The notes below the pieces were generated by a model. The model saw nothing but the letters and a program-made list of their open reading frames with translations. It was not told where the DNA came from and ran no database searches. From assembly GCA_031262165.1 (NCBI GenBank), contig JAISIF010000213.1, positions 1 to 63,260 on the forward strand: a DNA stretch of 63,260 nt. Reading direction: 5' to 3'. Of this stretch, positions 21,044 to 63,260 are shown in pieces. Numbering within the stretch: position 1 is the stretch's first letter; each line of letters opens with the position of its first letter. The translations under genes were made by a program, and so were the position numbers. The DNA comes from Myxococcales bacterium. Its GTDB lineage: Bacteria > Myxococcota > Myxococcia > Myxococcales > UBA5297.

Positions 21044-21216
21044 CGTGTGATCACTCCTGTGAGCGCTTTCGTCAGATAGGCCCAAAACGCTCGAAAAAGG
21101 CCAGACAGTCCGGGCCGACGGATCCACCACCAGGGGACCAGGCTCCGGGCCGGAATCAGCGGCGCGGCGCCCTAGCAGCAACGATTTGCGCGCGCAACCA
21201 GGCAGGGGGGGAGGAC

Positions 21217-21423
21217 CAGGGCAATCGAGTTCTAAATTTACTTGACAGCCAAACATCGCCAGACGGGCCTTTGAGTAACTCCAAGCAGGTGTTCGAGAAC
21301 TCTGTTTCACTCTGAAAAAGAAAAATCGAACCAACGGCGCCAACCCCAAAATGCTGCCCTTCAAGGCCTGCTTGGTTAGAACTCGATTGCCCTGGGGGGA
21401 GGACGCAGGGCAATCGAGTTCTA
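21217..21423. repeat. Family B inverted-repeat structures (18-bp arms TAGAACTCGATTGCCCTG / CAGGGCAATCGAGTTCTA)
   Basis: An arm at 21217-34 and its complement at 21377-94 bracket a 142-bp lower-GC segment. A second perfect hairpin, 21377-21394 / 21406-21423, has an 11-nt loop. Confidence 0.8.
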
Positions 21424-21572
21424 AGGGCTTATCCATTGATGAGGACCGATCAACGCGAAGACCGAGGAATGCCAGACGAGGCGCGAGGCAGGGGCATCCA
21501 GACGGAAGCGACCATCGAAGGCTGGCGTTTCACGGACGAGCGGGGCGACGGGATAATTGAGGGATAAGCCCT
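21424..21572 (-). repeat. MITE-like element, family A, copy 2 (149 bp)
   Basis: Ends are AGGGCTTATCCATTGAT and AATTGAGGGATAAGCCCT. The core GAAGGCTGGCGTTTCACGGACGAGCGGGGCGACGGGA is the reverse complement of the copy 1 core. It ends 10 nt from the ruvA stop. Confidence 0.85.
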
Positions 21573-21582
21573 GAATCGACGA

Positions 21583-22203
21583 TCACCCGCGCGCGAGGCG
21601 CAGGGCCTCTTTCACGAGGGACTCTATGGTGGCGTCTTTTCCCAGGCTCTGTTCGGCCTTGTCGGCCAGTCGCTCGGCCTGGGCTGGTTTGTAGCCGAGG
21701 CTGGTGAGGGCCGTGACGAGATCGCTCTCGCGGGACGAGATCGCGCGTTCGATGCGCATCGGGCCGCCGCCGGTCTGGCCTGTTGCCTTGTCTGGCAAGA
21801 GCGGCGTGACCTTGTCCTTGAGTTCGAGCACGATGCGCTCGGCGGTCTTCTTCCCCACGCCGTGGAGCTTCGTAAGCCGCCCTGTGTCACCCGAGGCGAT
21901 GGCCTTGGCGAGGTCACCAGGTTCGAGCCCAGAGAGGATGTTCATCGCGGCCTTGGGGCCGACCTGTGAGACGGACATGAGCAGGCGGAACAGGTCTTCC
22001 TCGGCCACGGTCAGGAAGCCATAGAGGTCGAGGGCATCTTCGCGAACGATGGTGCGGATGCGCAGCGCGATGGGATCGCCCTCGGGCGGCAGGCGTGCCT
22101 GGGCCATGAGCGAGATGGCGACGCGGTAGCCCACGCCGTGGACATCGATGACGACCTCGTCGAGGCGCTTTTCGGACAGGGTTCCCTGCAGGGACGCGAT
22201 CAT
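21583..22203 (-). CDS. ruvA: Holliday junction branch-migration complex subunit RuvA
   Basis: 206 aa. MIASLQGTL...VIDVHGVGYRV, LYGFLTVAEEDLFRLLMSVSQVGPKAAMNILS and LTKLHGVGKKTAERIVLELKDK (HhH motifs). Confidence 0.95.
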   Translation of the reverse strand: MIASLQGTLSEKRLDEVVIDVHGVGYRVAISLMAQARLPPEGDPIALRIRTIVREDALDLYGFLTVAEEDLFRLLMSVSQVGPKAAMNILSGLEPGDLAKAIASGDTGRLTKLHGVGKKTAERIVLELKDKVTPLLPDKATGQTGGGPMRIERAISSRESDLVTALTSLGYKPAQAERLADKAEQSLGKDATIESLVKEALRLARG

Positions 22204-22302
22204 GAAGGATCTCCACCCGATCGAGGCTGAGCGTCGGGCGCGCCCTCATTGGCGGGATTCACGGGAGAGTCAATGGGCGCCTTCGAATCCACCCGCGATC
22301 CC

Positions 22303-22329
22303 ATTCATTCATTCATTCATTCATTCATT
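22303..22329. repeat. Tetranucleotide microsatellite (ATTC)6+ATT
   Basis: Read directly: ATTCATTCATTCATTCATTCATTCATT, about 100 nt upstream of the ruvA start and at the edge of the AT-rich islet. Confidence 0.95.
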
Positions 22330-22466
22330 TTCATCCTCTTCAGAAACGAAACCCAAAATCCGCTGAGAATCCATTCCTTCTCGAGACGATTTCGGATTGA
22401 AATGAATCCTGAAACATCTCTTCAAAAAAAGGCCATCTCATAGAATCCCCATAAAAACTTTATAGT

Positions 22467-22644
22467 CGTATAAAAAGCATCACCAACATCTTGAGTATTC
22501 ATAGAGGGCTGACTCTAGTGATTCATATTGTAAAACATTATCACGTAGCCACCTCTTGAAATTTGCCCATGTCTTTTCGTGAGTAAAGCATGATTGACCG
22601 CGGTGTTGTTGGGAGTTCCCTTTTAGCGTTTCTTCTTTATGCGG
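22467..22644 (+). repeat. AT-rich duplicated module, unit 1
   Basis: Aligns with 22781-22939 and carries a 17-nt insertion relative to unit 2. The near-identical core GCCACCTCTTGAAATTTGCCCATGTCTTTTCGTGAGTAAAGCATG ends at the ATG at 22590. Confidence 0.85.
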
Positions 22645-22787
22645 ATATATCTTATGCCTCATATAGGAAAACACTATATCATTCGTGCGATCCAACTTAT
22701 ATCTTCGAAAAATTCCAAGATTTAGGATTCCTCAGAAAAGCCTCCATCCCTGTTTGGGGTGATTGGTTGATGATTATGATCGTGTAA
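22590..22787 (+). CDS. Hypothetical small hydrophobic peptide (65-aa ORF; only the first ~20 aa are conserved with unit 2)
   Basis: MIDRGVVGSSLLAFLLYADI... The start codon and frame are conserved with the 21-aa ORF at 22885, and substitutions preserve hydrophobic character. There is no convincing SD, so the call is speculative. Confidence 0.25.
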   Translation: MIDRGVVGSSLLAFLLYADISYASYRKTLYHSCDPTYIFEKFQDLGFLRKASIPVWGDWLMIMIV

Positions 22788-23399: not shown

Positions 23400-24080
23400 T
23401 CACAGCTCAGAGAACAGGCCCGCGTTGACGAGGCTGACGAAGCGGCCTTCGCCGATGATGACGTGGTCGAGTGGCACGACTCCGAGGAGCTCGCAGGCGC
23501 GTTTGAGCCGCCGCGTGACGGACAGATCATCGTTAGAGGGGGCTGGATCGCCGCTCGGGTGGTTGTGGACGAAGATGACAGCGTGACTCTGCAGCCGAAT
23601 GGCCTCGACCAGCGCCTCGCGCGGCTCGATGCCGCAGGTGGCGGCGCCGCCGATGGCGACCAAGGCGTCGCGCAAGAGTAGGTGACGCGCGTCGAGACAC
23701 ATGACGTGGAAGCGCTCGTGCGAGAGGTGCGACAGGCGGGGCGCGTAGAACTCGAAGACCGACTGGACGCCGGTCACGAGGAAGCGCTGTCGCCTGGGCA
23801 TTTGGGCGCGCGCGCCGAACTCCACCGCCGCCACGAGCGTGCAGGCCAGCGACAGGCTCATGCCCTTTCGAGACGCGAGATCCGCGAGCGAAGCGCGTCG
23901 CAGTGTGGCCAGGTCGCCGTAGTGATCGATGAGCTCCGCGGCGCGCTCCAGGGCGGTCATGCCGTCGGAGCGCCCTTCGAGGAGCATCGCGAGCAGCTCC
24001 TCGTTCGCGAGCGCCGACTCACCGTGGAGCAGCAGCTTTTCGCGCTGCGCGTCCATCTCCCACAATTCGAGGTTGCGCAT
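23400..24080 (-). CDS. radC: RadC-family (UPF0758) JAB/MPN-domain protein
   Basis: 226 aa. N-terminal HhH-like region LANEELLAMLLEGRS...LATLRRASLADLASRKGMS. JAMM motif HNHPSGDPAPSNDDLSVTRRL. Good RBS (AAGGAGAGG). Confidence 0.9.
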   Translation of the reverse strand: MRNLELWEMDAQREKLLLHGESALANEELLAMLLEGRSDGMTALERAAELIDHYGDLATLRRASLADLASRKGMSLSLACTLVAAVEFGARAQMPRRQRFLVTGVQSVFEFYAPRLSHLSHERFHVMCLDARHLLLRDALVAIGGAATCGIEPREALVEAIRLQSHAVIFVHNHPSGDPAPSNDDLSVTRRLKRACELLGVVPLDHVIIGEGRFVSLVNAGLFSEL

Positions 24081-24400
24081 GGTTGCCTCTCCTTTCGTCT
24101 CCCAGAGGGAGCAAGGGGAGGGATTCCACGCGGGGTGCCAGGCCAGGGCGCGCGCGAACCTCGAATGAACGCCAGCGCTGGCACTGGGTGGCGATGGATG
24201 GGCTCAGCGCTGATCTGGAACAGGACCGTTCCTGTTTGGAAAAGCGGCGCGTCACTTCGCGACAGGCCCTGCTTGACCCCGAGTCTGGATTGCTGGATGC
24301 GGCGCGCCTTCGAGCGGCCTCTCTTCGTCGCGTCAATTCATCGTCGCGTCCACGTGAGGCGAGGCATCCATCACCCATCATCAGAGGTGAAAGACAGGGC

Positions 24401-24919
24401 ATGCGCATTCTCGGCATCGATCCAGGGACGCAGTATCTGGGCGCGGGCATCGTCGAGCGGGAGGGCAGCCGCGTTCGGCACGTGGCACACGCCCTTCTGA
24501 CTCCCAAGGACTTCGACACCCTGCCGGACAAGCTCGCCTATCTGTTCGATGGCCTGACCGAGATCATCGAGGCTCACAGGCCCGAGGTCGCCTCGATTGA
24601 GACCGTCTTTCACGGCAAGAATGCCCATTCGGCCATCGTGCTGGCCCACGCGCGCGGCGTCGCGCTTTTGGCCGCGGCCAGAGCCGATCTGCCTGTCTTC
24701 GAATACGCGCCCGCCCAGGTGAAGCGCGCCGTCGGGGCCTCGGGCAGCGCGGCCAAAGAGGTGGTGACGCGGCTCGTCTGCTCGATCCTCGCTCTGGAAA
24801 CGGTCGAGCGAGCCGATTGTGCCGACGCGCTCGCCGTTGCCCTGTGCCATCTGAACCACGCCGCCCCTCTGGTTCGGCCCTCGGTCGGCTATCGCATCGT
24901 CCGACGAGACATCGGGTGA
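24401..24919 (+). CDS. ruvC: Crossover junction endodeoxyribonuclease RuvC
   Basis: 172 aa from ATG 24401. MRILGIDPGTQYLGAGIVE, EVASIETVFHGKNAHSAIVLAHARG, YAPAQVKRAV and ADALAVALCHLNH. The ORF-track start at 24083 is an over-extension. Confidence 0.93.
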   Translation: MRILGIDPGTQYLGAGIVEREGSRVRHVAHALLTPKDFDTLPDKLAYLFDGLTEIIEAHRPEVASIETVFHGKNAHSAIVLAHARGVALLAAARADLPVFEYAPAQVKRAVGASGSAAKEVVTRLVCSILALETVERADCADALAVALCHLNHAAPLVRPSVGYRIVRRDIG

Positions 24920-25274
24920 GGGCTGGTCTGCCCAAACCATTCGGCGACACATCGGCATTGCGAGTGGCGAGCGTTCCTACCGACCTCGCTTCGGTGGGAT
25001 TCTGGAACAGGTCTATCGACGAGCAAACTCAACCAATAGAAATGGATTGCTTCGTCACTTCGGGTCTCTAATGACGATTCGATACTTTTCCGCAAACACA
25101 TCATTATTAGCGATCGAAGCAAAACAATCCGTTGTCCATCACAAACTCAATGACGGATCATTGTTCCATCGCATCTAAGGGGCCATGAATGGCGCCCATG
25201 TCTTTCGTCTCATGGGAAAGTGCTGGTGAAAGACCTCATTGACGCTCTCGCCAAGCTCGCTCATTAGTGCCCCC

Positions 25275-26261
25275 ATGAAATGCCCCAATTGCAGAGCGCT
25301 CTGCCCCGATGACACCAGTTTCTGTCCCAAATGCGACGCGGTCCTCGACGAATCCCTCCTGGAGTTGAGCCGCAGCGCCCCTGGTGATGACGACGTCACC
25401 CCAGCCCCCGATGAAGATGAGGCGCCCCAGCGAGCCCGGCTTCCTGCCCACAGACCCCAGGCCCAGCGCAGGCGGTCGCCCGAGGGCAGAGCAGAGCAGA
25501 GCGCGCGACCACGCCATCGACCACCTCCTGCTGACGAGGCAGCGGAGCGCCCTCGCAAGCGTCGGCCCGCGCCCATCGCCATTGCCGAAGCCGAGGAAGA
25601 GGCAGCTGCCGCCCCACGCCCGTCGGCCAATCCCACCGCGAACACCAACGCGGAGGAAGGAGGTCGATACGTCGGCAAGTATTCCCAGTATTGGGACGAC
25701 GACGAGCCGCCGCCGCGCAAAAAGCCCGAAGCGCCGGTCATGGCCACCGAGGGCGGGCGCCAATACCGCTATGGACAAGGTATCCAGGAATCCACGGAGG
25801 ACACGGGCAACCTGAATGAGCTGCCCAACGATCCGCTCTCCCTAGTCAAAGACTCGTGGAAGGCCTTTTTGGCGCTGCCATTCTTTCAGCGCGTCACAGC
25901 GAGCAGCAGCGTGGGCCTGTTTTTTTTCTCCATGATTCCCTGGAGCTATTTCACGAACCGAGCGGGGACACAGGACTCGGAATACACGACGGCCAACTTC
26001 CTGGGGATGTTCCTGGCCGCGCTCTGCATCTTTGGTCTGGTGCTCCAGAAATCGGACACCCTGCCGAAGATCCCCAGGAAGCACCTGCCGCTCGTTCCAT
26101 TGGCCGTGGGCCTGCTGGGCGCCCTCGCGATCGTCCTGGTGACGATCTACCTGATGGCCAGCAGGACCTACAGTCCCGCGATGACTGGTCTAGTCATGTC
26201 CTTCCTCTCCGCGCTCATCATCTTTCTGAGTGGCGGGATGAGCTTCCTGAAAAAGGAATGA
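25275..26261 (+). CDS. Zinc-ribbon membrane protein (N-terminal CxxC..CxxC, PA/acidic linker, ~4 C-terminal TM helices)
   Basis: MKCPNCRALCPDDTSFCPKCDAVLDE. C-terminal helices include VGLFFFSMIPW, FLGMFLAALCIFGLVL, LVPLAVGLLGALAIVLVTIYL and GLVMSFLSALIIFLSGG. Confidence 0.7.
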   Translation: MKCPNCRALCPDDTSFCPKCDAVLDESLLELSRSAPGDDDVTPAPDEDEAPQRARLPAHRPQAQRRRSPEGRAEQSARPRHRPPPADEAAERPRKRRPAPIAIAEAEEEAAAAPRPSANPTANTNAEEGGRYVGKYSQYWDDDEPPPRKKPEAPVMATEGGRQYRYGQGIQESTEDTGNLNELPNDPLSLVKDSWKAFLALPFFQRVTASSSVGLFFFSMIPWSYFTNRAGTQDSEYTTANFLGMFLAALCIFGLVLQKSDTLPKIPRKHLPLVPLAVGLLGALAIVLVTIYLMASRTYSPAMTGLVMSFLSALIIFLSGGMSFLKKE

Positions 26262-26314
26262 ACCGCACCGGTTGATTGATCTCAATGGTTCCAACCGAAT
26301 CGCTGAAGCCATCC

Positions 26315-26352
26315 AAGGCGGACCAATTGAATTTGGGCCGCCTTTTTATTTT
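26315..26352 (+). terminator. Rho-independent terminator after the zinc-ribbon membrane protein gene
   Basis: Stem AAGGCGGACC / GGGCCGCCTT (9 of 10 pairs), 10-nt loop, then TTTTTATTTT. Confidence 0.75.
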
Positions 26353-26494
26353 CGTCGCCACCTGAACCGAATGGCCGAAGCAGGCGCCGAGAGAAAAGAG
26401 CCATTCCAAAACCTCTCTGATGCAATGGCTTTTTGTAGGAGCGTCATTCATGGCACCCTATTCGGTTCAACTATTCAGAATAGAGGGCGCGATA

Positions 26495-26655
26495 AGGACT
26501 CATCCATCGATTAGGATCTTTTAGGATCTTTGCACCGCGAAGGACGGGAAATGTCAGACGAGGCGAGAGCTTCCAGACGGCAGTGAAGAGCGAAGGAACG
26601 AAGGCTGGCGTTTCACGGACGAGCGGGGCGACGGGAGAATTGAGGAATAAGTCCT
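26495..26655 (-). repeat. MITE-like element, family A, copy 3 (161 bp)
   Basis: Ends are AGGACTCATCCATCGAT and AATTGAGGAATAAGTCCT. The core is GAAGGCTGGCGTTTCACGGACGAGCGGGGCGACGGGAG. It contains an internal tandem TTAGGATCTT x2. Confidence 0.85.
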
Positions 26656-26976
26656 CAATCGCACTCCTAACGCAAAGAAACACCTTGTGTGGATGCGGTT
26701 TTGGCACAGGTCGAGGACAGCGTTTGGAAATCGATCCGAGTCGGGTTCGATCCACTTTGATCCACCACGCTTGGATCGATCTCTCCACGCCCCCGCTGTG
26801 AAGAGCAAAACCTCTCTGTGGCACGCCTCTGATTCGGTATGCCGTGGGTCGAGGTGCGCTAGGTAGGAGCTCCTCACCCAAAGAGAGGGCGCGGGCCTGG
26901 GCTAGTGGTGGTTCGTTGAACGACATTCTAGATTTAGTGTCATTTTTACAAAGAACTCGCGGTCGAAGATTTTGCT

Positions 26977-27029
26977 TTGACAAGATCCAGGGTGAGGGGC
27001 ACAAAGTGGAAAAAGGTGGTATGTAGTGG
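26977..27029 (+). promoter_or_regulatory. Putative mraZ/dcw promoter with three MraZ-box-like direct repeats
   Basis: TTGACA at 26977-82. An extended -10-like TGGTATGTA at 27017-25. GTGG occurs at 27006, 27016 and 27026, an exact 10-bp period (AAAGTGG AAAAAGGTGG TATGTAGTGG), 60-80 nt upstream of the mraZ ATG. Confidence 0.5.
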
Positions 27030-27087
27030 CGAACGAGGAACGCTAGAGCGGCGCAAAGGCGCTTTCTTCCATTCGAGGCCGGGGCAG

Positions 27088-27534
27088 ATGTTTCTAGGGA
27101 ATTTCGAGCACACGATTGACGTGAAAGGGCGCACCAGCGTCCCCGCCGACTATCGCAAGCTCCTCAGCGAAGATCGGATCGTCGTCACCCCGGCCCCGGG
27201 CGACGACCGCTGCCTGCACGTCTATCCTCTGAATGCCTGGCAGGATTTCGCGACCAAGCTGGCGCAGCGCAGCTCGTCCGAGCCAGGCGTCCGGCAGATT
27301 TACCGGACCTATGTTGCCCAAGCCGCCGCCATCGAGATCGACAAGCTGGGACGAATTCTTTTGCCGCCCAAACTCCGCCAATGGGCTGGCCTCGAAAAAG
27401 ACGTCGTCTGGGTCGGTCAATTGAATCGGATGGAGCTGTGGGAACCGGAGCGCTGGGAGCAGGTGGAGCTCGCCGCCAATGACCCGGTCCATCAGGGTGA
27501 TGTCGATAGGGTCAAGATAGAGCTCGGTTTGTAA
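27088..27534 (+). CDS. mraZ: Transcriptional regulator MraZ
   Basis: 148 aa. MFLGNFEHTIDVKGRTSVPADYRKLL and GRILLPPKLRQWAGLEKDVVWVG (two SpoVT/AbrB-like halves). Confidence 0.95.
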   Translation: MFLGNFEHTIDVKGRTSVPADYRKLLSEDRIVVTPAPGDDRCLHVYPLNAWQDFATKLAQRSSSEPGVRQIYRTYVAQAAAIEIDKLGRILLPPKLRQWAGLEKDVVWVGQLNRMELWEPERWEQVELAANDPVHQGDVDRVKIELGL

Positions 27535-55480: not shown

Positions 55481-57439
55481 ATGGACGAACTCATGAATGG
55501 CCGTCGGCGCGAGACATCGGGCAACGCGAACGACGACACCGCCACCGCCACCGCGAACCTGGAGCGCCACCGCCAGCAGGTCGCTCAGCTCCTGGAGATC
55601 GGCAAGCCTGACCAGGCCATCCACGTGCTCCTGACCGCGACCAGGAAGGCGGTGCTCGAGCGCGCGGCCCTCCTCATGTTCGCCTCTCTTTCGCGCGAGC
55701 TCTTCCTGCGCGCCGAGGCAGGTGAGGCCCTGGCCGAGGCCATTCGCGCGGTCGCCACGCCCACCGATCGGACGCTCTTGTGTCTGTTGGCCGCCAGATT
55801 GCTGTGCGCCGATCGCCAGTTTTCGCGCGCGCGTGACGTTCTCCAGAAGGCGCTGGAACAGCAGCCGTCGGGTGACCTCGCCCTCGAACGCCGCCTGATC
55901 TTCGTTGCGCTGCGCGCTGGTGAGATCGAGTCGGCCATCGAGCTCGTGAATCGGCAGATCGCCCAGGCTCGCCACACCGGCAATCGTCGCCGCGCGGCCC
56001 GCCTCGACCAATGGCTGGGCATGCTGTTCGAGGCGCGCCTGGCAGATCACTTCCGGGCAGCGGAGTGCCACGCCAGAGCAGCCGCGCTCTGCAAGGCCCT
56101 GAACTCACCGAGGGAGACCTTCCGCGCCCAGTGCCACGCCGTGCTCTGCCTGAGCCGAATCGATCCGCCGCCGCGCCAATTTGTCGGCGCGATCAAGGCG
56201 CTGCGCACCACGGCCAAAGCTGCTGGCTGCTCAGCCGACGCCGAAGTTTTGCTGCGCTCCCTCGGCCTCGAGATCGAGCACACGCCTGCCGCTGCTCCCA
56301 CCGACCCGCCATCGCCATCGCCTTTGGCTTCGACATCGAACCAAACCCCGATCCCTTCCTCGATGGTGACGCCAACGCCAGAGCTGCTCTCGACGCCCGA
56401 CGCGACGCCCGCCGAGGCGCGGACACCGGCTGCCAGCGGTCGCTTTCTCTCTTTCTTCCAAGAGGCGGAACAGCAGCGCATCAACCCCGGCCCTGTTAAG
56501 CGCGACGCGCGTGGGGAGCGGCATCAGCTCGAACGCCGCGCTGCCGAGGCGCCCTTCGACGCGGCCCGCTACCGCGCCCTCGCGGCGCATTACCTGGCCC
56601 ACCAGCGCGAACCGCTCGCGCAGCTCGTCTCAGATGTGGCCGATGCGCTCGAAGGCCGCACCAGCGAGCGCCCCTCCGCTCCGTCGCTCACCCTGAACGA
56701 CGAGGACTGGAACCTGATCCAGCACCCGATCATGGGCTCGGCTGCCCATGAGATCGGCGCCCTGATCGGATCGGCCGTGTGCGAGATCTGCGCGAAGCCG
56801 CTCGCGTCGTTCGAGCCGCGCGGCACCTTCGCGATGGACGGCTCGGACAGCGCCTGGACCATGGCCGACGCGCTCCTGTGCGCCGTCCGCGTGCTGGGCG
56901 TGCGCGCCGGTGACGTCCACCTGGCCAAGGAAAAGGACGCCCACCTGCCCATCTTTCCCGTCTGCTCAACGCCACCCGCGCTGTTCGTCAGCCCGCCCAA
57001 ACTCCGCCAAAAACTGTCCAGCGCGCAGCTGCGCTTCTTTGCCGGACGCGCGCTCGCCACGCTCCGCCCCGAGCTCGGCATGTTCCTCCTCCTGCCGCTG
57101 GATCAGGTCGATGCCGTGCTCGACGGCCTGCGCCGCGCTCTCCTGCGAGAGGGCCGCATGACAGAGAAGACGCGCGCCATCGTCCAGCGCATCTCCGGCA
57201 AATCGGCGGAGCGCCTGATGTGGCTTTTCGAACGTCCATTCGACGAGACGTTCTGCGCCGCGTATTTCCGCGAAGGCGCAGGCCACACAGTCAATCGCCT
57301 GGGCCTGCTCACGGCGGGCAACATCGCGCCCGCGCTCAGCGCGCTCGAGTTCGCGGGCGCCTCTGAGGCCGAGCGGGCCGAGCTGCTGCGCTTTGCCATC
57401 TCGAAAGCGTATTTCGAGCTGCGCCTGCGCCGAGGGTGA
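55481..57439 (+). CDS. Hypothetical protein (helical/TPR-like N-terminal region, PS-rich linker, conserved-looking C-terminal domain)
   Basis: 652-aa ORF with good high-GC coding character and an ATG start. I recognise no motif. Confidence 0.65.
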   Translation: MDELMNGRRRETSGNANDDTATATANLERHRQQVAQLLEIGKPDQAIHVLLTATRKAVLERAALLMFASLSRELFLRAEAGEALAEAIRAVATPTDRTLLCLLAARLLCADRQFSRARDVLQKALEQQPSGDLALERRLIFVALRAGEIESAIELVNRQIAQARHTGNRRRAARLDQWLGMLFEARLADHFRAAECHARAAALCKALNSPRETFRAQCHAVLCLSRIDPPPRQFVGAIKALRTTAKAAGCSADAEVLLRSLGLEIEHTPAAAPTDPPSPSPLASTSNQTPIPSSMVTPTPELLSTPDATPAEARTPAASGRFLSFFQEAEQQRINPGPVKRDARGERHQLERRAAEAPFDAARYRALAAHYLAHQREPLAQLVSDVADALEGRTSERPSAPSLTLNDEDWNLIQHPIMGSAAHEIGALIGSAVCEICAKPLASFEPRGTFAMDGSDSAWTMADALLCAVRVLGVRAGDVHLAKEKDAHLPIFPVCSTPPALFVSPPKLRQKLSSAQLRFFAGRALATLRPELGMFLLLPLDQVDAVLDGLRRALLREGRMTEKTRAIVQRISGKSAERLMWLFERPFDETFCAAYFREGAGHTVNRLGLLTAGNIAPALSALEFAGASEAERAELLRFAISKAYFELRLRRG

Positions 57440-57454
57440 GGGGCCGCGATCACA

Positions 57455-57949
57455 TCACTGCCGCGATGGCAAATCCTTCGAGCAGACCTTTCCGACGCAG
57501 TGAATTCCCGCCCGCTGCAACGCGCGCCACTCCGAGCTCATTTTCAAAATTTTGATGCCGCTCGAGGCAACCCAGAGCCACTGCCAGCCCTTCACGTTTG
57601 CCCCGGGGCGCAGATGAACTTTGAGCTGGTCGAGTGCCGCACTCTTCTTGGCGATGACTACCGAGACCTCATTCGTCTTGGCGGGGTGTGCTTCGATAGC
57701 GACAACGCGCTGAGTCGATGCGTGCCCGAGCAGGTAGTCCCAGCGTTTTTCACTCGGATGGTCGGCGCAGAGCGCAGCATCGAGATCGATGCTGTCAGCA
57801 AAGACTGAACGGATTTCTTCATCAAAGTGACACAGGTGCTTCTTCGCTACGGCACACATTCCAGGCTTGAGCTCAGCTTGGAGAGGTGAGTTCTCCAAGA
57901 GCACACTCTGAACAGGCGTCGCCGGGACGCTCTTGAGACGCCGCTTCAC
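57455..57949 (-). CDS. 164-aa protein of unknown function, translationally coupled to the upstream ATPase gene
   Basis: The GTG at 57949 overlaps the ATPase TGA (GTGA). Sequence: VKRRLKSVPATPVQ...SIDLDAALCADHPSEKRWDYLLGHASTQRVVAIEAHPAKTNEV... The 306-aa track ORF (to 58375) would overlap the ATPase gene out of frame. Confidence 0.6.
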   Translation of the reverse strand: MKRRLKSVPATPVQSVLLENSPLQAELKPGMCAVAKKHLCHFDEEIRSVFADSIDLDAALCADHPSEKRWDYLLGHASTQRVVAIEAHPAKTNEVSVVIAKKSAALDQLKVHLRPGANVKGWQWLWVASSGIKILKMSSEWRALQRAGIHCVGKVCSKDLPSRQ

Positions 57950-59118
57950 GACGGGTCCTCGTTCACAGCCGCGCACACGATGTCGCCAAATCGAGACGAG
58001 TATTCGGTCAGGCCACCCCACTCGGCGACGCGCGGATCGTCCGATCCTGGATCCAAGGACGAGATGTCCGTCGAGGACACTTTCCCGTCTGAATCGAAGT
58101 CGAGCAGATAGGCGCGGTAGTCCTTGGTGAGCGCCTCTTCCGCGACCTTCTTCATCTGCTGAGAGGGCTTCATGTCGAAGGCCTCGCAGACGAGCTGCCA
58201 GCGCGCACGATGGGCCCTGAGCTCCCGCATCATCCAGATCATGGCCAATGGCTCTGGCGAGTGCGTCGAGAGGACGACCTTGTAGCCGCGCCACAGCAGG
58301 TCGAGCACGAGGAGCAAGACCGCGTTGATGGCCTTGGGATGCAGCCCCATCTCGGGCTCCTCGATGACGACCCAATCAGTGCCCTCGCGCTTCCGCAACG
58401 AAGTCGAGGGCAGCAGGAAATAGAGGCCCAGAAGGAGCGGGGTGAACTCACGCTGCCCGGCCGTCCAAGTCATGAAGGGCAGGTGCAGGTCGCCGTGGAC
58501 GAGGCGCAGCTCTTTGCGTGCAGCTGTCTCTTCGATTCCGACCGACCCGCCATGAAAGACGGCCGCATCGATCTTGCGGCGAATTTCCTCTTTCAGTCGC
58601 TTTTTGAGAGGGAAGAGCTTGCCCGCCTCCCTGCTCTTGAACCGATCGAACAGGTTCTGACTGAACAAGCGGGCGACCACAGGATTGTCTGAGTCCAGCC
58701 GATGGAAGGGCAGTGCCCAACCATCGCGAATCAGCAGCGAGCGCTGTGCTGGAACGAAGAAGAGCTTCTCGCCGCCCTCGCCCTGCTCATGAAGCGACTT
58801 CGGCGAAATCCCCTGACCACCGAAGGTGATGGCCGTGTTCTTCTTCCAGGAAGGCGCCATCCCCTCCCCGAAGATGAGGTCGATGAGCCGATCGGGCCGC
58901 GTCGAGTCGCCTGACTCGTCGAGCGCTTGGACGATCTGCTTCCCGTCCATCGCGACCTTGAGCCACTGCAGCGCGAGGCTCTTGCCCACCCCCTGCGGCC
59001 CAACGAGCACGGTGAGATCGCCCAGTTCGATCTGAACGTCGCGCAGGTGCGCGAAGTTTTGGATCCTCAGGGTCAGTCCACTCGACTTCTCGCCTTGCGT
59101 CTTTCGAGTTCTGGCCAC
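57946..59118 (-). CDS. ABC/SMC-like P-loop ATPase (AAA_21/AAA_15-type)
   Basis: 390 aa. LRIQNFAHLRDVQIELGDLTVLVGPQGVGKS (Walker A), PAQRS (Q-loop-like), TAGQREF (signature-like), DWVVIEEPEMGLHP (Walker B/D-loop) and VLSTHSP (H-loop). It starts 13 nt after the hisS stop. Confidence 0.8.
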   Translation of the reverse strand: MARTRKTQGEKSSGLTLRIQNFAHLRDVQIELGDLTVLVGPQGVGKSLALQWLKVAMDGKQIVQALDESGDSTRPDRLIDLIFGEGMAPSWKKNTAITFGGQGISPKSLHEQGEGGEKLFFVPAQRSLLIRDGWALPFHRLDSDNPVVARLFSQNLFDRFKSREAGKLFPLKKRLKEEIRRKIDAAVFHGGSVGIEETAARKELRLVHGDLHLPFMTWTAGQREFTPLLLGLYFLLPSTSLRKREGTDWVVIEEPEMGLHPKAINAVLLLVLDLLWRGYKVVLSTHSPEPLAMIWMMRELRAHRARWQLVCEAFDMKPSQQMKKVAEEALTKDYRAYLLDFDSDGKVSSTDISSLDPGSDDPRVAEWGGLTEYSSRFGDIVCAAVNEDPS

Positions 59119-59131
59119 GGGGCCTCCTCAC

Positions 59132-60421
59132 TCACATCGCCGCTGCGATGGCCTCTGGATCGAGCGCGACATCACGCGCCTCTCCGGTCGCCATCTGTTT
59201 GAGCGATGCCTTGCCCGAGGCGAGCTCACTGTCGCCCAAGACCAGAACGAAGCGCGCACCGACCTTGTCAGCCCGGCGCATCTGCGACTTGAGGCCGCCC
59301 CCGCGCAGATCCTGATCGACCCAGATGCCTTGTCGACGCAGAGCTGCTGCCAGTTGAAGCGCTTGCGCGATCGCGCTCTCGCCCATCGGAACGATGAAGA
59401 GATCTGGTCCGGGCGCGGGTTTCGCGTTGCGTGCGGCGAGCAGGGCCAGTCGATCGAGGCCAGCTGCGAATCCGACGGCAGGCGTCGCTGGTCCGCCCAG
59501 GCTCTCGATGAGACAGTCGTAGCGACCGCCCGCACACACCGTGCTCTGGCTGCCGAGCGCACCCTCGCCCGTCTCGCGCGAGACGAACTCGAAGACAGTG
59601 CGCGTGTAGTAGTCGAGGCCACGCACGATGCGCGGGTTGACGACATAGGGGATGGCGAGCGCGTCGAGCAGAGAGCGCACGCGATCGAAATGATCTCGGC
59701 ACGGCTCGCACAAAAAACCATCGATCGTGGGCACGCTCTGGGTGACGGCCTGACACTGGGCGCTCTTGCAGTCGAGCACGCGCAGCGGGTTCGTCTCTAG
59801 GCGGCGCTGGCATTCGGCGCACAGGTCTGCTGCGTGGCTCTTGAGCGCGGCGATGAGCGCCTCGACGTAGCGGGGTCGGCAGTTGGCATCGCCCAGCGAG
59901 TTGATCTCGAGCGTGAGCTCGCCCAGGTCGAGTCGCGAGAGAAAGGCATGCGCCGCATCGATGAGCTCAGCGTCGGCCTGCGGGGTGGCAGCGCCATAGA
60001 TCTCGGCGCCGACCTGGAAGAATTGGCGGTAGCGACCGCGCTGCTGGCGCTCACGGCGGAACATGGGGCCTAGGTAAAACCAGCGGACGAGTGCGCCCTG
60101 CGCGAGCTGATTGTGCTCGATGGCCGCACGCACCGCAGGCGCCGTGCCCTCGGGCCTGAGCGAGACGAGCGTGCCTGCCCTGCCCTCGGCCTTGCCATCC
60201 TCGAACGTGTACATCTCCTTGCCCACGATGTCGGTGGCCTCGCCCACGCCGCGAACGAAGAGTGCCGTCTTTTCCAGAACCGGCGTGCGCACCTCACCAA
60301 AGCCAAAGTGGGTGAGCGTGTCGCGGGCGCTCTCCTCGATGGTGCGCCACTGCGCTGTCACATCGGGAAGCAGGTCATTCATGCCTTTGACCGCAGTGAT
60401 CTTGTCTGCCATCGGCCTCAC
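59132..60421 (-). CDS. hisS: Histidine--tRNA ligase
   Basis: 429 aa; ATG 60412 is an alternative start. VKGMNDLLP, RYDCL-type motifs, LRPEGTAPAVRA, YLGPMFRRERQQRGRYRQFFQ and GGRYD. ATG 60421 overlaps the psd stop (ATGA). Confidence 0.95.
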   Translation of the reverse strand: MRPMADKITAVKGMNDLLPDVTAQWRTIEESARDTLTHFGFGEVRTPVLEKTALFVRGVGEATDIVGKEMYTFEDGKAEGRAGTLVSLRPEGTAPAVRAAIEHNQLAQGALVRWFYLGPMFRRERQQRGRYRQFFQVGAEIYGAATPQADAELIDAAHAFLSRLDLGELTLEINSLGDANCRPRYVEALIAALKSHAADLCAECQRRLETNPLRVLDCKSAQCQAVTQSVPTIDGFLCEPCRDHFDRVRSLLDALAIPYVVNPRIVRGLDYYTRTVFEFVSRETGEGALGSQSTVCAGGRYDCLIESLGGPATPAVGFAAGLDRLALLAARNAKPAPGPDLFIVPMGESAIAQALQLAAALRRQGIWVDQDLRGGGLKSQMRRADKVGARFVLVLGDSELASGKASLKQMATGEARDVALDPEAIAAAM

Positions 60422-61275
60422 TCCTTGCCTGCCGTCACGCGGCCGATCGCCTGGCCCATGCGGATCTTGTCGCCCTCGGTCAGCGCCGCATCGAGCGTCA
60501 CGCGGCCTGGCTCGAAGACCAGGATCACGGTCGAACCCATCTCGAACACGCCGAGCTCGGCGCCCTTGTCCACGGCCAGCGGCGGCTCGAATGATTGCTC
60601 CCGGGTATTGGCGAGCGATTCACGCGTCTTGAGGTCGCAGTAGCTTGCGCGGATGGCACCGACGCACGTGGCGCCGACCTTGACCACGGCCACCTCACCC
60701 GCGGCGGTCGACAGATAGGTGATGAGCCGCTCGTTCACGCAAAACAGGTTGGGGACGCTGCGCACCGAGGGGCCGTTCACGGGGAAGAGCTCGCCTGGGA
60801 TCACGCTGCACGCCTCGATGGCACCAGCGAGCGGGGCATGGATGCGGTGGTAGTCGCGCGGCGACAGATAGAGCGTGAGGTAGGTGCCACCCATGAAGCG
60901 CTCTGCCCGCGTCGAGTCGTCGAGCAGCGCGGCGAGCGAGTAGTCGCGGCCCTTGGCCTGGATCATCCGACCGCCGGTCGCGATACCAAACGCCGAGACA
61001 CGTGCATCCACGGGTGAGACCACCACATCGTCGCCAACCGCGATGGGCCGGGCACCTTCCTTGAGTGGCCGCGTGAAGAAGTCCGCAAACGTGGCGCACT
61101 CGTCTGGCGTGAGCGCGGCCTCGTCCGTGTCGATGTCGAGGATGCGGGCAAATGCGCGCGCGGCTTTTTGATGGATCTTGGAAGACACGGGCAGGCGCGT
61201 GGCCTTGCCAACCCCTTTGCTGAGCAGGGATTTGGGCAAAAGGGTGAGCGCTGTCAGAATGGCGGCTTGTTTCAT
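60418..61275 (-). CDS. psd: Phosphatidylserine decarboxylase proenzyme
   Basis: 285 aa from ATG 61275. LSPRDYHRIHAP, VNERL, and the self-cleavage motif FEMGSTV. The track start at 61407 is an over-extension. Confidence 0.9.
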   Translation of the reverse strand: MKQAAILTALTLLPKSLLSKGVGKATRLPVSSKIHQKAARAFARILDIDTDEAALTPDECATFADFFTRPLKEGARPIAVGDDVVVSPVDARVSAFGIATGGRMIQAKGRDYSLAALLDDSTRAERFMGGTYLTLYLSPRDYHRIHAPLAGAIEACSVIPGELFPVNGPSVRSVPNLFCVNERLITYLSTAAGEVAVVKVGATCVGAIRASYCDLKTRESLANTREQSFEPPLAVDKGAELGVFEMGSTVILVFEPGRVTLDAALTEGDKIRMGQAIGRVTAGKE

Positions 61276-61499
61276 GGCAATTTCCAGGGCGGCGAAGGGC
61301 CGACGGGGGAGGGGAGTGGCGAGATGGGATGGGGATGGAGAGTTGGAGCGCGCGATGCGTCGGTGAACAGCGGAGCACTCCGAAGCACGAAAGAAGCGCT
61401 CGTTCACCTGGTGCGCCGCAGTCGAGCTGAGTCGGATCGGATCGCTCGCTCGACAGCGGGGAGCGACTCGTCGGCAGTGGACAACCGGCGTGCTGGCCG

Positions 61500-62234
61500 T
61501 CAGATGCCCAGGAAGAGGCGCTTGCCGAAGTTGAGGGCCAGGTCAGCCTCGAAGATGCGCCGCGCGGACGTCTCGATGTCGTATTCGACGCGATGGAATT
61601 GGGCGATGCGCTTCGCAGTGTCATACACGACGAAGCACGACCGGTTGTCGTAGTCGCGGGGCTGGCCAATGCTGCCGACGGAGATGACGTATTTGCGGCC
61701 AGGCTGAATCGAGACGATCGGGTCGCGCGCCTCGAAGAATTCCCCACCCTCAGAGAGCGCGAAGGCCTTGCTCATGTGCGAGTGGCCGATGAAGGTGACC
61801 TCGCTCAGCGCCTCGTAGTGGGGCAGGAGCTCTTCGAGCTGCTCGATGGTGAAGATGTATTCGTAGGCTTCGGGTCGAAGCGGCGCGCCGTGGGAAAAGC
61901 ACAGATCGCCGAAGCGGTAGGCGTAAGGCAGGCTGCGCAGCCACGCGAGGTTGGGGGAGGAAAGCTGCGCCGCGGTCCAATCGAGGACCTGGCGCGCGGC
62001 CTCATAATAGGCGCCATAATCCATTCGCCTGGAGACGGCGGCGTCATGATTTCCAAGCAGCGTGATCTCGGTCATGTTGCGGATGAGCGCGCAACAGGCT
62101 TCGGGGCTGGCCCCATAGCCGACGACATCCCCCAGACAGATGATGCGATCGACGTCGAGGTGTTCGAGTTCGCACTTCGTGGCGAGGAGCGCTTCGAGGT
62201 TGGAGTGGATGTCGCTGATGATGGCAATACGCAT
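61500..62234 (-). CDS. Metallophosphoesterase (calcineurin-like; YfcE/MJ0936-type)
   Basis: 244 aa. MRIAIISDIHSN (DxH), CLGDVVGYG (GDxxxxG), GNHD and IGHSH. Confidence 0.85.
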   Translation of the reverse strand: MRIAIISDIHSNLEALLATKCELEHLDVDRIICLGDVVGYGASPEACCALIRNMTEITLLGNHDAAVSRRMDYGAYYEAARQVLDWTAAQLSSPNLAWLRSLPYAYRFGDLCFSHGAPLRPEAYEYIFTIEQLEELLPHYEALSEVTFIGHSHMSKAFALSEGGEFFEARDPIVSIQPGRKYVISVGSIGQPRDYDNRSCFVVYDTAKRIAQFHRVEYDIETSARRIFEADLALNFGKRLFLGI

Positions 62235-62518
62235 GGATAGGCCTCAATGAATCGCAGGGGGCGTCCGAAAAAGCCGCGTATTATACGCGCTGCTGTCACC
62301 TGATGGAACTATTTTATCATCGTTGTTTTGATTTCATCTGAATCAGAGAACATTCGTTTTTAATTTATTTATCATTCGTCAATATATTCCTTCACCATGA
62401 CGACATGTTTTTTCAGAAATATTTGAAGAGAGACTGTCATTTTCATCAAAAATCCTGGTTTTGGAAAAGGATTGAGAAATGGTCGACAGAAGCATCCGTT
62501 TAAAAATTATTCAGCCCA

Positions 62519-62650
62519 CTAACACTACAGTTGCGATTGACTTCTATCGCCTGGAAATTCGGAAGAATTCTGAGGTCGCCATCATCCGGCTTTCCTCTGG
62601 CAGAACTAGTTTGGATCGTCCCAAAACGAAAACAGCAACTGTAGTGCTAG
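62519..62650. mobile_element. 132-bp MITE with the same termini as the IS701-like element at the window start
   Basis: Left end CTAACACTACAGTTG (62519-33) is the reverse complement, with 1 mismatch, of right end CAACTGTAGTGCTAG (62636-50). The right end plus the next G is identical to 274-289. The AT-rich interior has no credible ORF. Confidence 0.7.
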
Positions 62651-63260
62651 GCCCTGTTTGAAAACCCTTGAAGAAGCCCGGAGGGATGAAAGAAGGACCA
62701 AATGCACCGACACGAATTGACCGAACGAGAGTGGAATCGCATTGCGCATTTACTTCCAATCAAAACACCGGGCAGCCCGGGTAAGCCGCCCGAACTCGAC
62801 AATCGGATTTTCATGAATGCGATCTATTACATCGTCAAGACTGGAATTCCTTGGCGGGATTTGCCTGAGCGTTTTGGCCCATGGGAGACGGTTTATGCAC
62901 GTTTCTCTTTATGGAATCGTAAAGGTATTCTTCAAAAAGTGCATGATGAATTGGCCAAAGATGCCGACCACGAGTCGAACATGGCCGATGGGAGCTACGT
63001 CAAGGTGCATCGGGACGCCTCCGGCGGAAAAAGGGGGGCCAAAATCAGGCGATCGGTCGGTCACGTGGCGGATTGACAACGAAAATTCACGCACTCGTGG
63101 ACGCATTGGGCAATTCAATTCACATTCATCTTTCTGCGGGCAATGTGCATGATGCGACCGAGGCGCCCGCGCTTATTGAAAAAGCTCAGGGCGAAAATTT
63201 ATTGCCGACAAAGGCTACGACTCGGACAAAATTATTGCGGCCATTGCAGAAAAGCGCGAA
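62651..63260 (+). mobile_element. IS5-family insertion sequence (IS427/IS1031-like group), left part; runs off the window
   Basis: A putative left IR GGCCCTGTTTGAAAACCC starts right after CTAG. The transposase begins at 62702. Confidence 0.75.
62702..63260 (+). pseudogene. IS5-family DDE transposase (DUF4096-type N-terminus), frameshifted, 3'-truncated by the window
   Basis: OrfA reads LTEREWNRIAHLLP...NAIYYIVKTGIPWRDLPERFGPWETVYARFSLWNRKGI. After the A5G6 run (63028-63038) the -1 frame reads KGGQNQAIGRSRGGLTTKIHALVDALGNSIHIHLSAGNVHDATEAPALIEKAQGEN. A further -1 shift near 63196 is then needed to read FIADKGYDSDKIIAAIAEKRE. Confidence 0.7.

What the first reader, a model, noticed from the sequence alone, without database searches (positions are those of the whole stretch)
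57455..59118. Translationally coupled ABC-type ATPase plus 164-aa orphan partner appended to the psd-hisS operon: candidate two-gene defence-like module
57946-59118(-) encodes a 390-aa P-loop protein. It has the motif set of the SMC/ABC-like AAA_21/AAA_15 ATPases that drive many anti-phage systems: Walker A GPQGVGKS, Q-loop-like PAQRS, signature-like TAGQREF, Walker B/D-loop VVIEEPEMGLHP and H-loop STHSP. I can recognise no fused effector domain.

Its TGA overlaps the GTG of a 164-aa ORF (GTGA at 57946-57949), which is classic coupling of an ATPase to a partner. The partner shows no HNH, TOPRIM or other motif I recognise. A D..D..E..K arrangement (SIDLD, RWDYLL, VVAIEAHPAK) could be a PD-(D/E)xK-like nuclease core, but that is a guess.

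The pair starts 13 nt after the hisS stop and ends 15 nt from the convergent gene ending at 57439. By eye it is less GC-rich than its neighbours. This is what a small horizontally acquired cassette looks like. ATPase plus small-effector pairs define Septu, PARIS, Gabija-like and RloB/AbiL-type systems. This partner does not obviously resemble those effectors.
Basis: partly seen in the sequence, partly recalled or inferred. Interest (0 to 1): 0.72.

Follow-up and report, generated by a model that had tools for sequence, protein, structure and literature searches.

The report
Catalogued candidate phage-defence gene pair (PDC-M56)
Two overlapping genes after hisS encode an ATP-driven sensor-like protein and a small probable nuclease, and they belong to a widespread but untested candidate anti-virus system already listed in the PADLOC database as PDC-M56.

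Summary
Gene B (57455-57949, minus strand, 164 aa) starts in a GTGA overlap with A's stop codon.

The pair is not an orphan. It matches the PADLOC candidate system PDC-M56 (A: E 1.8e-123; B: E 6.5e-23). PDC-M56 is one of 145 untested "phage defence candidates" from Payne et al. 2024.

B belongs to a family of at least 1052 clusters. A sits directly upstream of B in all 56 genome loci where this can be seen, and B follows A in 6 of 6 loci found by searching with A. The NTGA overlap is kept in 56 of 62 loci. A and B identities co-vary (r = 0.72). Neighbouring genes are otherwise unrelated. Some are type I restriction-modification or DISARM-like genes or an integrase island; many are housekeeping genes. 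None is hisS.

B models confidently (pLDDT 95) as a restriction-endonuclease-like fold. It has invariant D71, E86-x-H88 and K101, so histidine replaces the canonical lysine. A resembles Septu PtuA and Rad50 heads.

The most likely function is an ATPase-controlled nuclease defence, but this is inferred, not shown. The GC evidence for recent transfer is modest. This is a new member of a known candidate kind and is moderately interesting.

The parts
57946..59118 (-). Gene A: 390-aa ABC-type (SMC/Rad50/PtuA-like) ATPase, PADLOC PDC-M56A. Walker A K46 (58981-58983), signature Q222, Walker B E253/E254, H-loop H286.
   Evidence: ORF. Pfam AAA_15 + AAA_21. PDC-M56A E 1.8e-123 over residues 17-386. Motif positions. 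AlphaFold model pLDDT 81, pTM 0.84. Foldseek best matches Septu PtuA (8eea, 7e-9), Rad50, RecN and SMC heads. Sequence-profile hits to an OLD-family nuclease, GajA and PtuA.
57455..57949 (-). Gene B: 164-aa partner, PADLOC PDC-M56B. Predicted restriction-endonuclease-like fold with invariant W70, D71, E86, H88, K101 and W126. Probable nuclease effector.
   Evidence: PDC-M56B E 6.5e-23. No Pfam, NCBIfam or PHROG family. Family size. Invariant residues across 70 diverse members. Model pLDDT 95.4, pTM 0.88. Foldseek PDB and BFVD hits to PD-(D/E)xK nucleases.
57946..57949 (-). GTGA overlap: the start codon of B (57949-57947) overlaps the stop codon of A (57948-57946). A GAGGA Shine-Dalgarno-like sequence lies 6 nt upstream at 57960-57956.
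   Evidence: Sequence. An NTGA overlap is conserved in 56 of 62 related loci, and in 4 further loci found by searching with A.
59119..59131 (-). 13-nt spacer between the hisS stop and the start of A. It holds the GAGGAGG ribosome-binding site (59129-59123) and leaves no room for a separate promoter, so A-B are probably read through from psd-hisS.
   Evidence: Sequence. No sigma-70-like promoter and no terminator above chance in 57200-59600.

Best explanation
The two genes are an intact copy of the PADLOC candidate anti-phage system PDC-M56. This is a self-contained, horizontally mobile two-gene module that has landed directly behind hisS and is probably transcribed by read-through from psd-hisS.

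Proposed mechanism, inferred by analogy and not shown:
- A is a PtuA/Rad50-like ABC ATPase. It oligomerises through its nucleotide-binding heads and acts as sensor and regulator.
- B is a small restriction-endonuclease-fold enzyme with an unusual D71 ... E86-x-H88 ... K101 active-site signature. It is made in fixed ratio with A through translational coupling and is held in check by A.
- An infection cue then releases or activates B. The cue could be a phage protein, foreign DNA ends or a fall in nucleotide levels. B would then cut nucleic acid (DNA, or RNA/tRNA), stopping the phage or the infected cell.

Shown here: membership of PDC-M56; the ATPase motifs and fold; the fold and conserved residues of B; obligate pairing and co-divergence of A and B; patchy distribution across phyla in unrelated contexts.

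Inferred: defence function, nuclease activity, the substrate, the trigger and the direction of control.
For: - PADLOC: A = PDC-M56A (E 1.8e-123, model positions 4-379 of 382); B = PDC-M56B (E 6.5e-23, 14-147 of 151).
- Literature: PDC-M56 is cassette CAS_00181 (FAM_00005>>FAM_02395) in Table S8 of Payne et al. 2024. It was derived from genes embedded in BREX, DISARM or restriction-modification (RM) loci and was left untested.
- Pairing: A is directly upstream of B in 56 of 59 genome loci found with B; the other 3 have B at a contig edge. B follows A in 6 of 6 independent loci found with A.
- Coupling: the NTGA overlap is kept in 56 of 62 loci.
- Co-divergence: pairwise identities of A and B correlate at r = 0.72, Mantel p about 0.001.
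- Distribution: the pair occurs in Myxococcota, Acidobacteriota, alpha-, beta- and gamma-Proteobacteria, Cyanobium, Planctomycetota, Fibrobacteria and others. A stays 55-70% identical across them.
- Context: the 109 immediate neighbours hit 107 different Pfam families, none in more than 6 neighbours. Some contexts are defence or mobile: directly after type I hsdR-M-S (L149); after a DrmD/DpdE-like helicase and DrmMI-like methylase in Cyanobium; in an integrase and primase island in Burkholderia cepacia; next to SIR2 and DUF87.
- Structures: the B model is confident and nuclease-like. A resembles Septu and retron PtuA.
- Integrity: all catalytic-looking residues are intact in the window copy.
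Against: - No experiment exists for PDC-M56. No paper text holds the name, and the source paper calls the 145 candidates untested. In that paper 2 of 9 tested candidates gave no protection.
- The window copy is not in a defence island. Its neighbours are hisS, psd, a metallophosphoesterase, a TPR protein and a Ser/Thr kinase. Most related loci also have housekeeping neighbours.
- Fold matches for B are statistically weak. No Foldseek hit reaches E <= 1e-3, and TM-score normalised to the query is about 0.3 over about 88 residues.
- The canonical lysine of (D/E)xK is a histidine in B, so catalysis is not assured.
- The pair is almost absent from sequenced phages (0 of 50,697 records) and plasmids (1 of 72,556).
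- No A-B complex model could be made.
Confidence: 0.6

Rival explanations
1. A selfish addiction or toxin-antitoxin-like module. B would be a nuclease toxin and A its ATP-dependent neutraliser. The module would be kept because its loss kills the cell, with no specific anti-phage role.
For: The pair is compact, autonomous and translationally coupled. It sits in unrelated contexts, many of them housekeeping. It shows no strong enrichment in defence islands. A B-like gene sits next to an AbiEi/AbiEii toxin-antitoxin pair in L001.
Against: It is nearly absent from plasmids and phages, where addiction modules thrive. Its ATPase relatives with known function (PtuA, GajA, AriA, OLD) are defence proteins. 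It was discovered because it is embedded in RM, BREX or DISARM loci. The two roles are also not mutually exclusive.
Confidence: 0.15
2. B is not an enzyme. It would be a degenerate restriction-endonuclease-fold adaptor or sensor, for example one that binds DNA or a phage protein. The output of the system would then lie elsewhere, such as ATP depletion or DNA compaction by A, or recruitment of a host nuclease.
For: The canonical catalytic lysine is replaced by histidine. Fold-search statistics are weak. No nuclease Pfam family is hit by any of 70 diverse members.
Against: Six residues are invariant across 70 diverse family members, including D71, E86, H88 and K101. D71 and E86 have the spacing (15 residues) and the strand positions of the PD...(D/E)xK motif: D71 lies just before beta-2 and E86 at the end of beta-3. 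From my own knowledge, the restriction-fold nuclease Vsr uses histidine in its active site. Inactive domains rarely keep such a polar constellation, and it persists even in the 40%-identity Opitutaceae pair.
Confidence: 0.12
3. A housekeeping DNA repair or recombination accessory pair, analogous to Rad50-Mre11/SbcCD or RecN/RecF-type ATPases working with a nuclease.
For: Rad50, RecN and SMC heads are among the best structural matches of A. In the window and in several other loci the pair is appended to housekeeping operons with very short spacers.
Against: A lacks the long coiled-coil of Rad50, RecN and SMC (model). The distribution is patchy across phyla, with 55-70% identity that is incongruent with taxonomy. 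The pair is absent from all 80 hisS loci of relatives. It has no conserved neighbours.
Confidence: 0.07
4. A functional member of the psd-hisS operon, for example acting on tRNA-His or in membrane-lipid homeostasis.
For: A starts 13 nt after the hisS stop with no promoter of its own, so co-transcription is likely.
Against: None of 59 genome loci with the pair has hisS or psd within 10 kb. None of 80 hisS loci has the pair, although 17 keep psd-hisS and 8 keep the phosphoesterase-psd-hisS order.
Confidence: 0.02

Closest known systems
PADLOC phage defence candidate PDC-M56 (Payne et al. 2024, bioRxiv 10.1101/2024.01.29.577857; cassette CAS_00181, FAM_00005>>FAM_02395)
   Same: Both proteins match the two models nearly end to end. 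The gene order (A then B), shared strand and adjacency also match.
   Different: Nothing structural differs. The window copy is not embedded in an RM, BREX or DISARM locus, which was the discovery context. The system itself has no tested function and no described mechanism.
Septu (PtuA ABC ATPase + PtuB HNH nuclease), including the retron-associated PtuAB
   Same: Two-gene architecture of an ATPase followed by a small nuclease-like partner. PtuA is the best structural match of A (8eea, E 7e-9) and a weak sequence-profile match.
   Different: B is not an HNH protein. It has a restriction-endonuclease-like fold. The PtuA PADLOC model does not appear among A's 25 best hits. No retron is present.
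HEC-02 (ABC ATPase + NERD, a PD-(D/E)xK-family nuclease), shown to defend with both genes required (Payne et al. 2024)
   Same: The same logic: an ABC ATPase plus a separate PD-(D/E)xK-superfamily partner.
   Different: A hits HEC-02A only weakly (E 9.7e-08). B hits no HEC-02B or NERD model. B's active-site signature has H in place of K.
PARIS (AriA ABC ATPase + AriB TOPRIM nuclease) and Gabija (GajA ATPase-TOPRIM + GajB helicase)
   Same: An AAA_15/AAA_21-type ATPase controls a nuclease. AriA and GajA models give partial hits (E 3.6e-17 and 3e-11). In PARIS the ATPase scaffold sequesters the nuclease until a trigger releases it (PMC11464382 abstract), which serves as a template for the proposed mechanism.
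   Different: There is no TOPRIM domain and no helicase. The hits cover only the Walker A or signature/Walker B stretches.
Nuclease domains of Card1, Can2 and Cdn1 (CARF-PD-(D/E)xK CRISPR ancillary nucleases) and type II/IV restriction enzymes
   Same: These are the best fold matches of B (6xl1 prob 0.99, 8bao, 9u49; also EcoO109I, Nt.BspD6I, TnsA, Avs4 and Mrr-like viral proteins). B has the D...E-x-[K/H] spacing.
   Different: B has no CARF domain. Sequence identity is 8-16%. Histidine replaces the canonical lysine, and there is an extra invariant K101 on the following helix. The roughly 50-residue N-terminal helical part of B has no counterpart.

Membership tests
PADLOC PDC-M56 | Protein matching the PDC-M56A model | tested here: met
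   E 1.8e-123, 410 bits, residues 17-386 on model positions 4-379 of 382.
PADLOC PDC-M56 | Protein matching the PDC-M56B model | tested here: met
   E 6.5e-23, 79 bits, residues 19-154 on model positions 14-147 of 151. It is the only PADLOC hit of B.
PADLOC PDC-M56 | The two genes are adjacent, on the same strand, in the order A then B | tested here: met
   4-nt overlap at 57946-57949. The same arrangement is seen in 56 of 56 testable genome loci.
PADLOC PDC-M56 | Embedded in or next to BREX, DISARM or RM genes (a discovery criterion, not a detection rule) | tested here: not met
   Window neighbours are hisS, psd, a phosphoesterase, a TPR protein and a kinase. The criterion is met in some relatives: type I RM in L149 and DrmD/DrmMI-like genes in L055 and L061.
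PADLOC PDC-M56 | Demonstrated anti-phage activity | not testable with these tools
   No paper text mentions PDC-M56. The source paper lists it among 145 untested candidates.
ABC ATPase superfamily (SMC/Rad50-like, Pfam AAA_15/AAA_21) | Walker A, Q-loop, ABC signature, Walker B/D-loop and H-loop in order | tested here: met
   GPQGVGKS 40-47, PAQRS 123-127, TAGQREF 219-225, VVIEEPEMGLHP 250-261, STHSP 284-288. K46, Q222, E253, E254 and H286 are invariant in 115 homologues. Pfam AAA_15 and AAA_21 score above their cut-offs.
ABC ATPase superfamily (SMC/Rad50-like, Pfam AAA_15/AAA_21) | ABC head fold | tested here: met
   Model pTM 0.84. 264 PDB matches at E <= 1e-3, led by PtuA, Rad50, RecN and SMC heads.
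Septu (PtuAB) | PtuB-type HNH nuclease partner | tested here: not met
   B has no HNH Pfam or PADLOC hit. It is modelled as an alpha-beta-beta-beta-alpha-beta restriction-endonuclease-like fold.
PARIS / Gabija / OLD | TOPRIM nuclease domain, fused or as a partner (plus the GajB helicase for Gabija) | tested here: not met
   No TOPRIM or helicase domain in A, B or the flanking genes.
PD-(D/E)xK (restriction-endonuclease-like) nuclease superfamily | Alpha-beta-beta-beta-alpha-beta core fold | tested here: met
   DSSP of the pLDDT 95 model gives H44-49, E50-55, E72-76, E81-87, H92-112 and E123-127. The top Foldseek matches in PDB and BFVD are PD-(D/E)xK proteins, though all have E > 1e-3.
PD-(D/E)xK (restriction-endonuclease-like) nuclease superfamily | Catalytic D ... 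(D/E)-x-K motif on beta-2 and beta-3 | tested here: inconclusive
   D71 (before beta-2) and E86 (end of beta-3) are invariant and 15 residues apart. The K position holds an invariant H88, and an invariant K101 lies on the next helix. The three-dimensional geometry could not be inspected because no coordinates were available.
HEC-02 (ABC ATPase + NERD) | NERD-domain partner | tested here: not met
   B has no NERD or HEC-02B hit.

The most novel reading that the evidence does not exclude
PDC-M56 is a genuine, widely spread anti-phage system. Its effector founds a previously undescribed branch of the restriction-endonuclease fold, with a D-ExH-K active site in which histidine replaces the canonical lysine. 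The effector may cut RNA or tRNA rather than DNA, and it is gated by a compact PtuA-like ABC ATPase that lacks a coiled-coil.
Probability: 0.4. Interest if true: 0.5.

Novelty: new member of a known kind. Interest (0 to 1): 0.33.

Why it matters
If the inference holds, this is one more example of the recurring ABC-ATPase-plus-nuclease design in bacterial immunity. Two points make it a reasonable candidate for bench validation.

- The effector family has no Pfam entry. It numbers at least 1052 clusters at 50% identity and carries an unusual histidine-containing active-site signature.
- The ATPase is strikingly conserved across phyla (55-70% identity).

For annotating this genome, the practical message is simple. 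The two genes after hisS are an acquired PDC-M56 cassette, not part of histidyl-tRNA or lipid metabolism. The database gene call for B is about 30 codons too short.

Tried and rejected
- **Apparent A-B fusion protein (P0204, 543 aa).** I rejected it as a Rosetta-stone link. Residues 1 to about 265 are A-like, followed by Arg/Gly-rich out-of-frame sequence and then B from residue 391. This is a frameshifted read-through, not a real fusion.
- **The 306-aa ORF 57455-58375.** Rejected. It is B's frame running open through A, and homologues start at the NTGA overlap.
- **Functional link to hisS or psd.** Rejected.
- **Insertion scars.** No convincing flanking direct or inverted repeats. No tRNA gene in the window. 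No promoter or terminator signal above chance.
- **Presence or absence in close relatives.** This could not be done properly.
- **Sequence-level identification of B.** Pfam, NCBIfam and PHROGs on B, Pfam on 70 diverse members and a profile search of PDB sequences gave nothing meaningful.
- **Phage or plasmid carriage.** Essentially none.
- **First homologue search for B.** The word-indexed search found only 13 clusters and suggested an orphan. The exhaustive profile search overturned that.
- **Krishnan et al. 2020 ABC ATPase classification.** The paper is not held in the library, so I could not check whether it names this clade.
Full report
**1. The observation**

The ORF list shows a 390-aa GTG-start ORF at 57946-59118(-). 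An open frame covers 57455-57949(-) and continues upstream to a TTG at 58375.

The minus-strand sequence shows the hisS stop at 59134-59132, then a 13-nt spacer containing GAGGAGG (59129-59123), then A's GTG at 59118. At the other end of A, GTGA at 57949-57946 makes B's start overlap A's stop, with a GAGGA 6 nt upstream. B's stop (57457-57455) lies 15 nt from the end of the convergent 652-aa gene at 57439.

Pfam assigns AAA_15 and AAA_21 to A and nothing to B. NCBIfam and PHROGs give only generic ATPase hits for A and nothing for B.

The composition argument holds only weakly.
- The pair has GC 0.608 against a window mean of 0.657 (sd 0.033). About 7.6% of equal-sized windows are as low.
- A's third-position GC (0.803) matches hisS (0.786) and psd (0.806).
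- Only B (GC3 0.685) stands out.

**2. What it is**

Against PADLOC-DB, A matches PDC-M56A (E 1.8e-123, nearly full length) and B matches PDC-M56B (E 6.5e-23). PDC-M56B is B's only hit in that library.

PDC stands for "phage defence candidate". Payne et al. 2024 collected genes embedded in BREX, DISARM and restriction-modification loci, curated 145 single- and multi-gene candidates, and added them to PADLOC without testing them. Their Table S8 lists cassette CAS_00181, FAM_00005>>FAM_02395, count 47, as "Assign as candidate PDC-M56". FAM_00005 is the broad ABC-ATPase family that also appears in HEC-01, PDC-M07 and PDC-M55. No paper in the library mentions PDC-M56 in its main text, so I found no experimental follow-up.

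**3. The partner is not an orphan**

A word-indexed search found only 13 clusters for B. An exhaustive profile search of 1.84 billion representatives found 1052 at E <= 1e-3, 557 at E <= 1e-10 and 112 at E <= 1e-30.

Across 70 diverse members the invariant residues are W70, D71, E86, H88, K101 and W126. Nearly invariant are S21, L23, G30, S53, D57, R69, Y72, A90 and W124.

The N-terminal 30 residues are conserved. The GTG start is therefore right, and the 134-aa database call for the window (P0001) is too short.

A is far more conserved. The 120 best hits are all 65-73% identical. They include Burkholderia cepacia, Corallococcus, Gallionella and Eisenbacteria.

**4. Co-occurrence and context**

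A genome-collection scan with the B profile gave 59 loci. They come from Myxococcota, Acidobacteriota, alpha-, beta- and gamma-Proteobacteria, Cyanobium, Planctomycetota, Fibrobacteria, Binatia and others.

- *Pairing from B.* tblastn shows A immediately upstream of B in 56 loci. The other three have B at a contig edge.
- *Pairing from A.* Six independent loci found by searching with A all have B directly after A.
- *Overlap.* The 4-nt NTGA overlap is present in 56 of 62 loci.
- *Co-divergence.* Pairwise identities of A and B across 59 pairs correlate at r = 0.72 (Mantel p about 0.001). Mean identity is 0.67 for A and 0.53 for B. The two genes diverge together as one unit.
- *Neighbours.* They are not conserved: the 109 immediate neighbours hit 107 different Pfam families, none in more than 6 neighbours.
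- *Defence or mobile contexts.* These include type I hsdR-M-S directly upstream (L149); a DrmD/DpdE-like helicase plus a DrmMI-like methylase in Cyanobium; SIR2 plus DUF87; and an integrase, resolvase and primase island beside mnmE in B. cepacia. Many other contexts are housekeeping (Mfd, arginine biosynthesis, efflux pumps). In about seven loci the pair sits within 60 nt behind a co-directional upstream gene, as in the window.
- *No link to hisS.* None of the 59 loci has hisS or psd nearby. Of 80 hisS loci from the metagenome collection (at most 57% identity), 17 keep psd-hisS and 8 keep phosphoesterase-psd-hisS, and none has A or B.
- *Phages and plasmids.* The pair is essentially absent from them: no hit in 50,697 phage records; one 40%-identity copy on an Opitutaceae plasmid; and one IMG/VR contig. 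The plasmid copy is followed by an unannotated 165-aa ORF. That ORF is a divergent B (hhalign probability 94%) and keeps WDY, E-V-H and K.

**5. Structures**

*B.* With a 123-sequence alignment, B models at pLDDT 95.4 and pTM 0.88. Its topology is H44-49, E50-55, H56-61, E72-76, E81-87, H92-112, E123-127, H139-146, E149-152. This is the alpha-beta-beta-beta-alpha-beta restriction-endonuclease core preceded by about 45 residues of short helices.

- The best PDB matches are Card1 (6xl1, probability 0.99), Can2 and Cdn1. Further down are Nt.BspD6I, EcoO109I, TnsA, PaqCI, Avs4 and McrC.
- BFVD gives restriction-endonuclease, Mrr, RecB-family and Vsr-like viral proteins.
- All E-values are above 1e-3 and the alignments cover about 88 residues. 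The fold assignment therefore rests on consistency, not on any single hit.

D71 lies just before beta-2, and E86 and H88 lie at the end of beta-3, 15 residues later. This is the canonical D...(D/E)xK spacing, with histidine where lysine is expected. K101 lies on the following helix. From my own knowledge, the restriction-fold nuclease Vsr uses histidines in its active site, and tRNA-splicing endonuclease EndA uses a Tyr-His-Lys triad. A His variant is therefore plausible, and an RNA substrate cannot be excluded.

*A.* A models at pLDDT 81 and pTM 0.84, with disordered stretches at 126-141 and 163-167 and no long coiled-coil. Its best matches are Septu PtuA, retron-associated PtuA, Rad50, RecN and SMC heads. 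Profile-to-PDB sequence hits are an OLD-family nuclease, GajA and PtuA.

**6. Mechanism**

*Shown.* The pair is intact, obligately paired and translationally coupled. It consists of an ABC ATPase and a small restriction-endonuclease-fold protein, it moves between phyla, and it is catalogued as a defence candidate.

*Inferred by analogy.*
- In PARIS, the AriA scaffold holds AriB until a trigger arrives (PMC11464382 abstract).
- In retron-Eco7, PtuAB degrades tRNA-Tyr (PMC12673091 abstract).
- In HEC-02, the ATPase and the NERD partner are both required for defence.

From these I propose that A senses an infection cue and licenses B to cleave nucleic acid. The substrate, the trigger and the direction of control are unknown. 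In the window, expression is probably by read-through from psd-hisS, because there is no room and no signal for a separate promoter.

**7. Rivals**

I considered four alternatives, scored in the rivals section.
- An addiction or toxin-antitoxin module.
- A non-catalytic B.
- A repair accessory.
- A true hisS-operon function.

The last is largely refuted.

**8. Verdict**

The pair is an instance of an already catalogued, untested candidate system.

What this analysis adds:
- The fold and the D-ExH-K signature of the effector.
- The size of the effector family.
- The strictness of the pairing and of the overlap.
- The co-divergence of A and B.
- The corrected start of B.

Interest is moderate to low. 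A routine PADLOC run would flag the locus, and the ATPase-plus-nuclease design is common. The effector family nevertheless remains uncharacterised and is worth a bench test.

Noticed in passing
L001:9902-10387 (NCBI GCA_002998485.1, contig PVBE012865186.1): A B-family protein (PDC-M56B, E 2.4e-16) has no ABC ATPase upstream. It sits directly after a 506-aa GHKL-type ATPase (HATPase_c_3, no PADLOC hit) and directly before an AbiEi/AbiEii pair. This suggests the small nuclease-like module can pair with a different ATPase class.
   Followed up: partly
window 62000-63260: GC falls to 0.42-0.52 at the end of the window. An IS4/IS5-family transposase N-terminal ORF (DUF4096, E 8e-29) lies at 62702-63076(+). 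This is a mobile element about 3.5 kb from the pair, beyond the phosphoesterase gene.
   Followed up: partly
window 20800-22700 and 24700-26700: Two further low-GC stretches (0.53-0.58). They hold ruvA (21583-22203), RadC (23400-24080) and ruvC (24083-24919), plus ORFs without Pfam hits, upstream of mraZ (26977-27534). No defence genes were seen there.
   Followed up: partly
window 57455-57859 (database protein P0001): The public gene call for B is 134 aa, starting at the internal ATG (M31). Conservation of the first 30 residues and the conserved NTGA overlap show that the true start is the GTG at 57949. Callers made similar truncated calls in L149, L150 and L152.
   Followed up: yes
window 58744-58746 (A residue Q125): The window's A has Q in the Q-loop-like motif PAQRS. 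In 90% or more of the 115 close homologues this position is H (PAHRS). The neighbouring R126 is invariant.
   Followed up: no
L148:7159-7656 (Opitutaceae bacterium TAV5 plasmid CP007054.1, record about 91092-91589): An unannotated 165-aa ORF lies 4 nt after a 40%-identity A homologue. It is a divergent B-family member (hhalign probability 94%). No CDS is listed for it in the PLSDB gene table, which is incomplete.
   Followed up: yes
L151:13078-14933 (minus strand): About 5 kb from a PDC-M56 pair there is a second, different gene pair: a 427-aa AAA_15/AAA_21/SMC_N ATPase followed by a 191-aa protein with no Pfam hit. It may be another ABC-ATPase two-gene system in the same neighbourhood.
   Followed up: no
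P0204 (543 aa, from the representative library): This apparent A-B fusion is a frameshift read-through. The central 120 residues are Arg/Gly-rich out-of-frame translation. It is a reminder that in high-GC DNA the overlapping frames stay open and can create false fusions.
   Followed up: yes
L067, L069-L072, L074, L078, L098 (metagenome contigs): The order phosphoesterase-psd-hisS seen at window 59132-62234 is conserved in the eight nearest hisS relatives found (49-57% HisS identity). It is therefore an old syntenic block to which the pair was added.
   Followed up: partly
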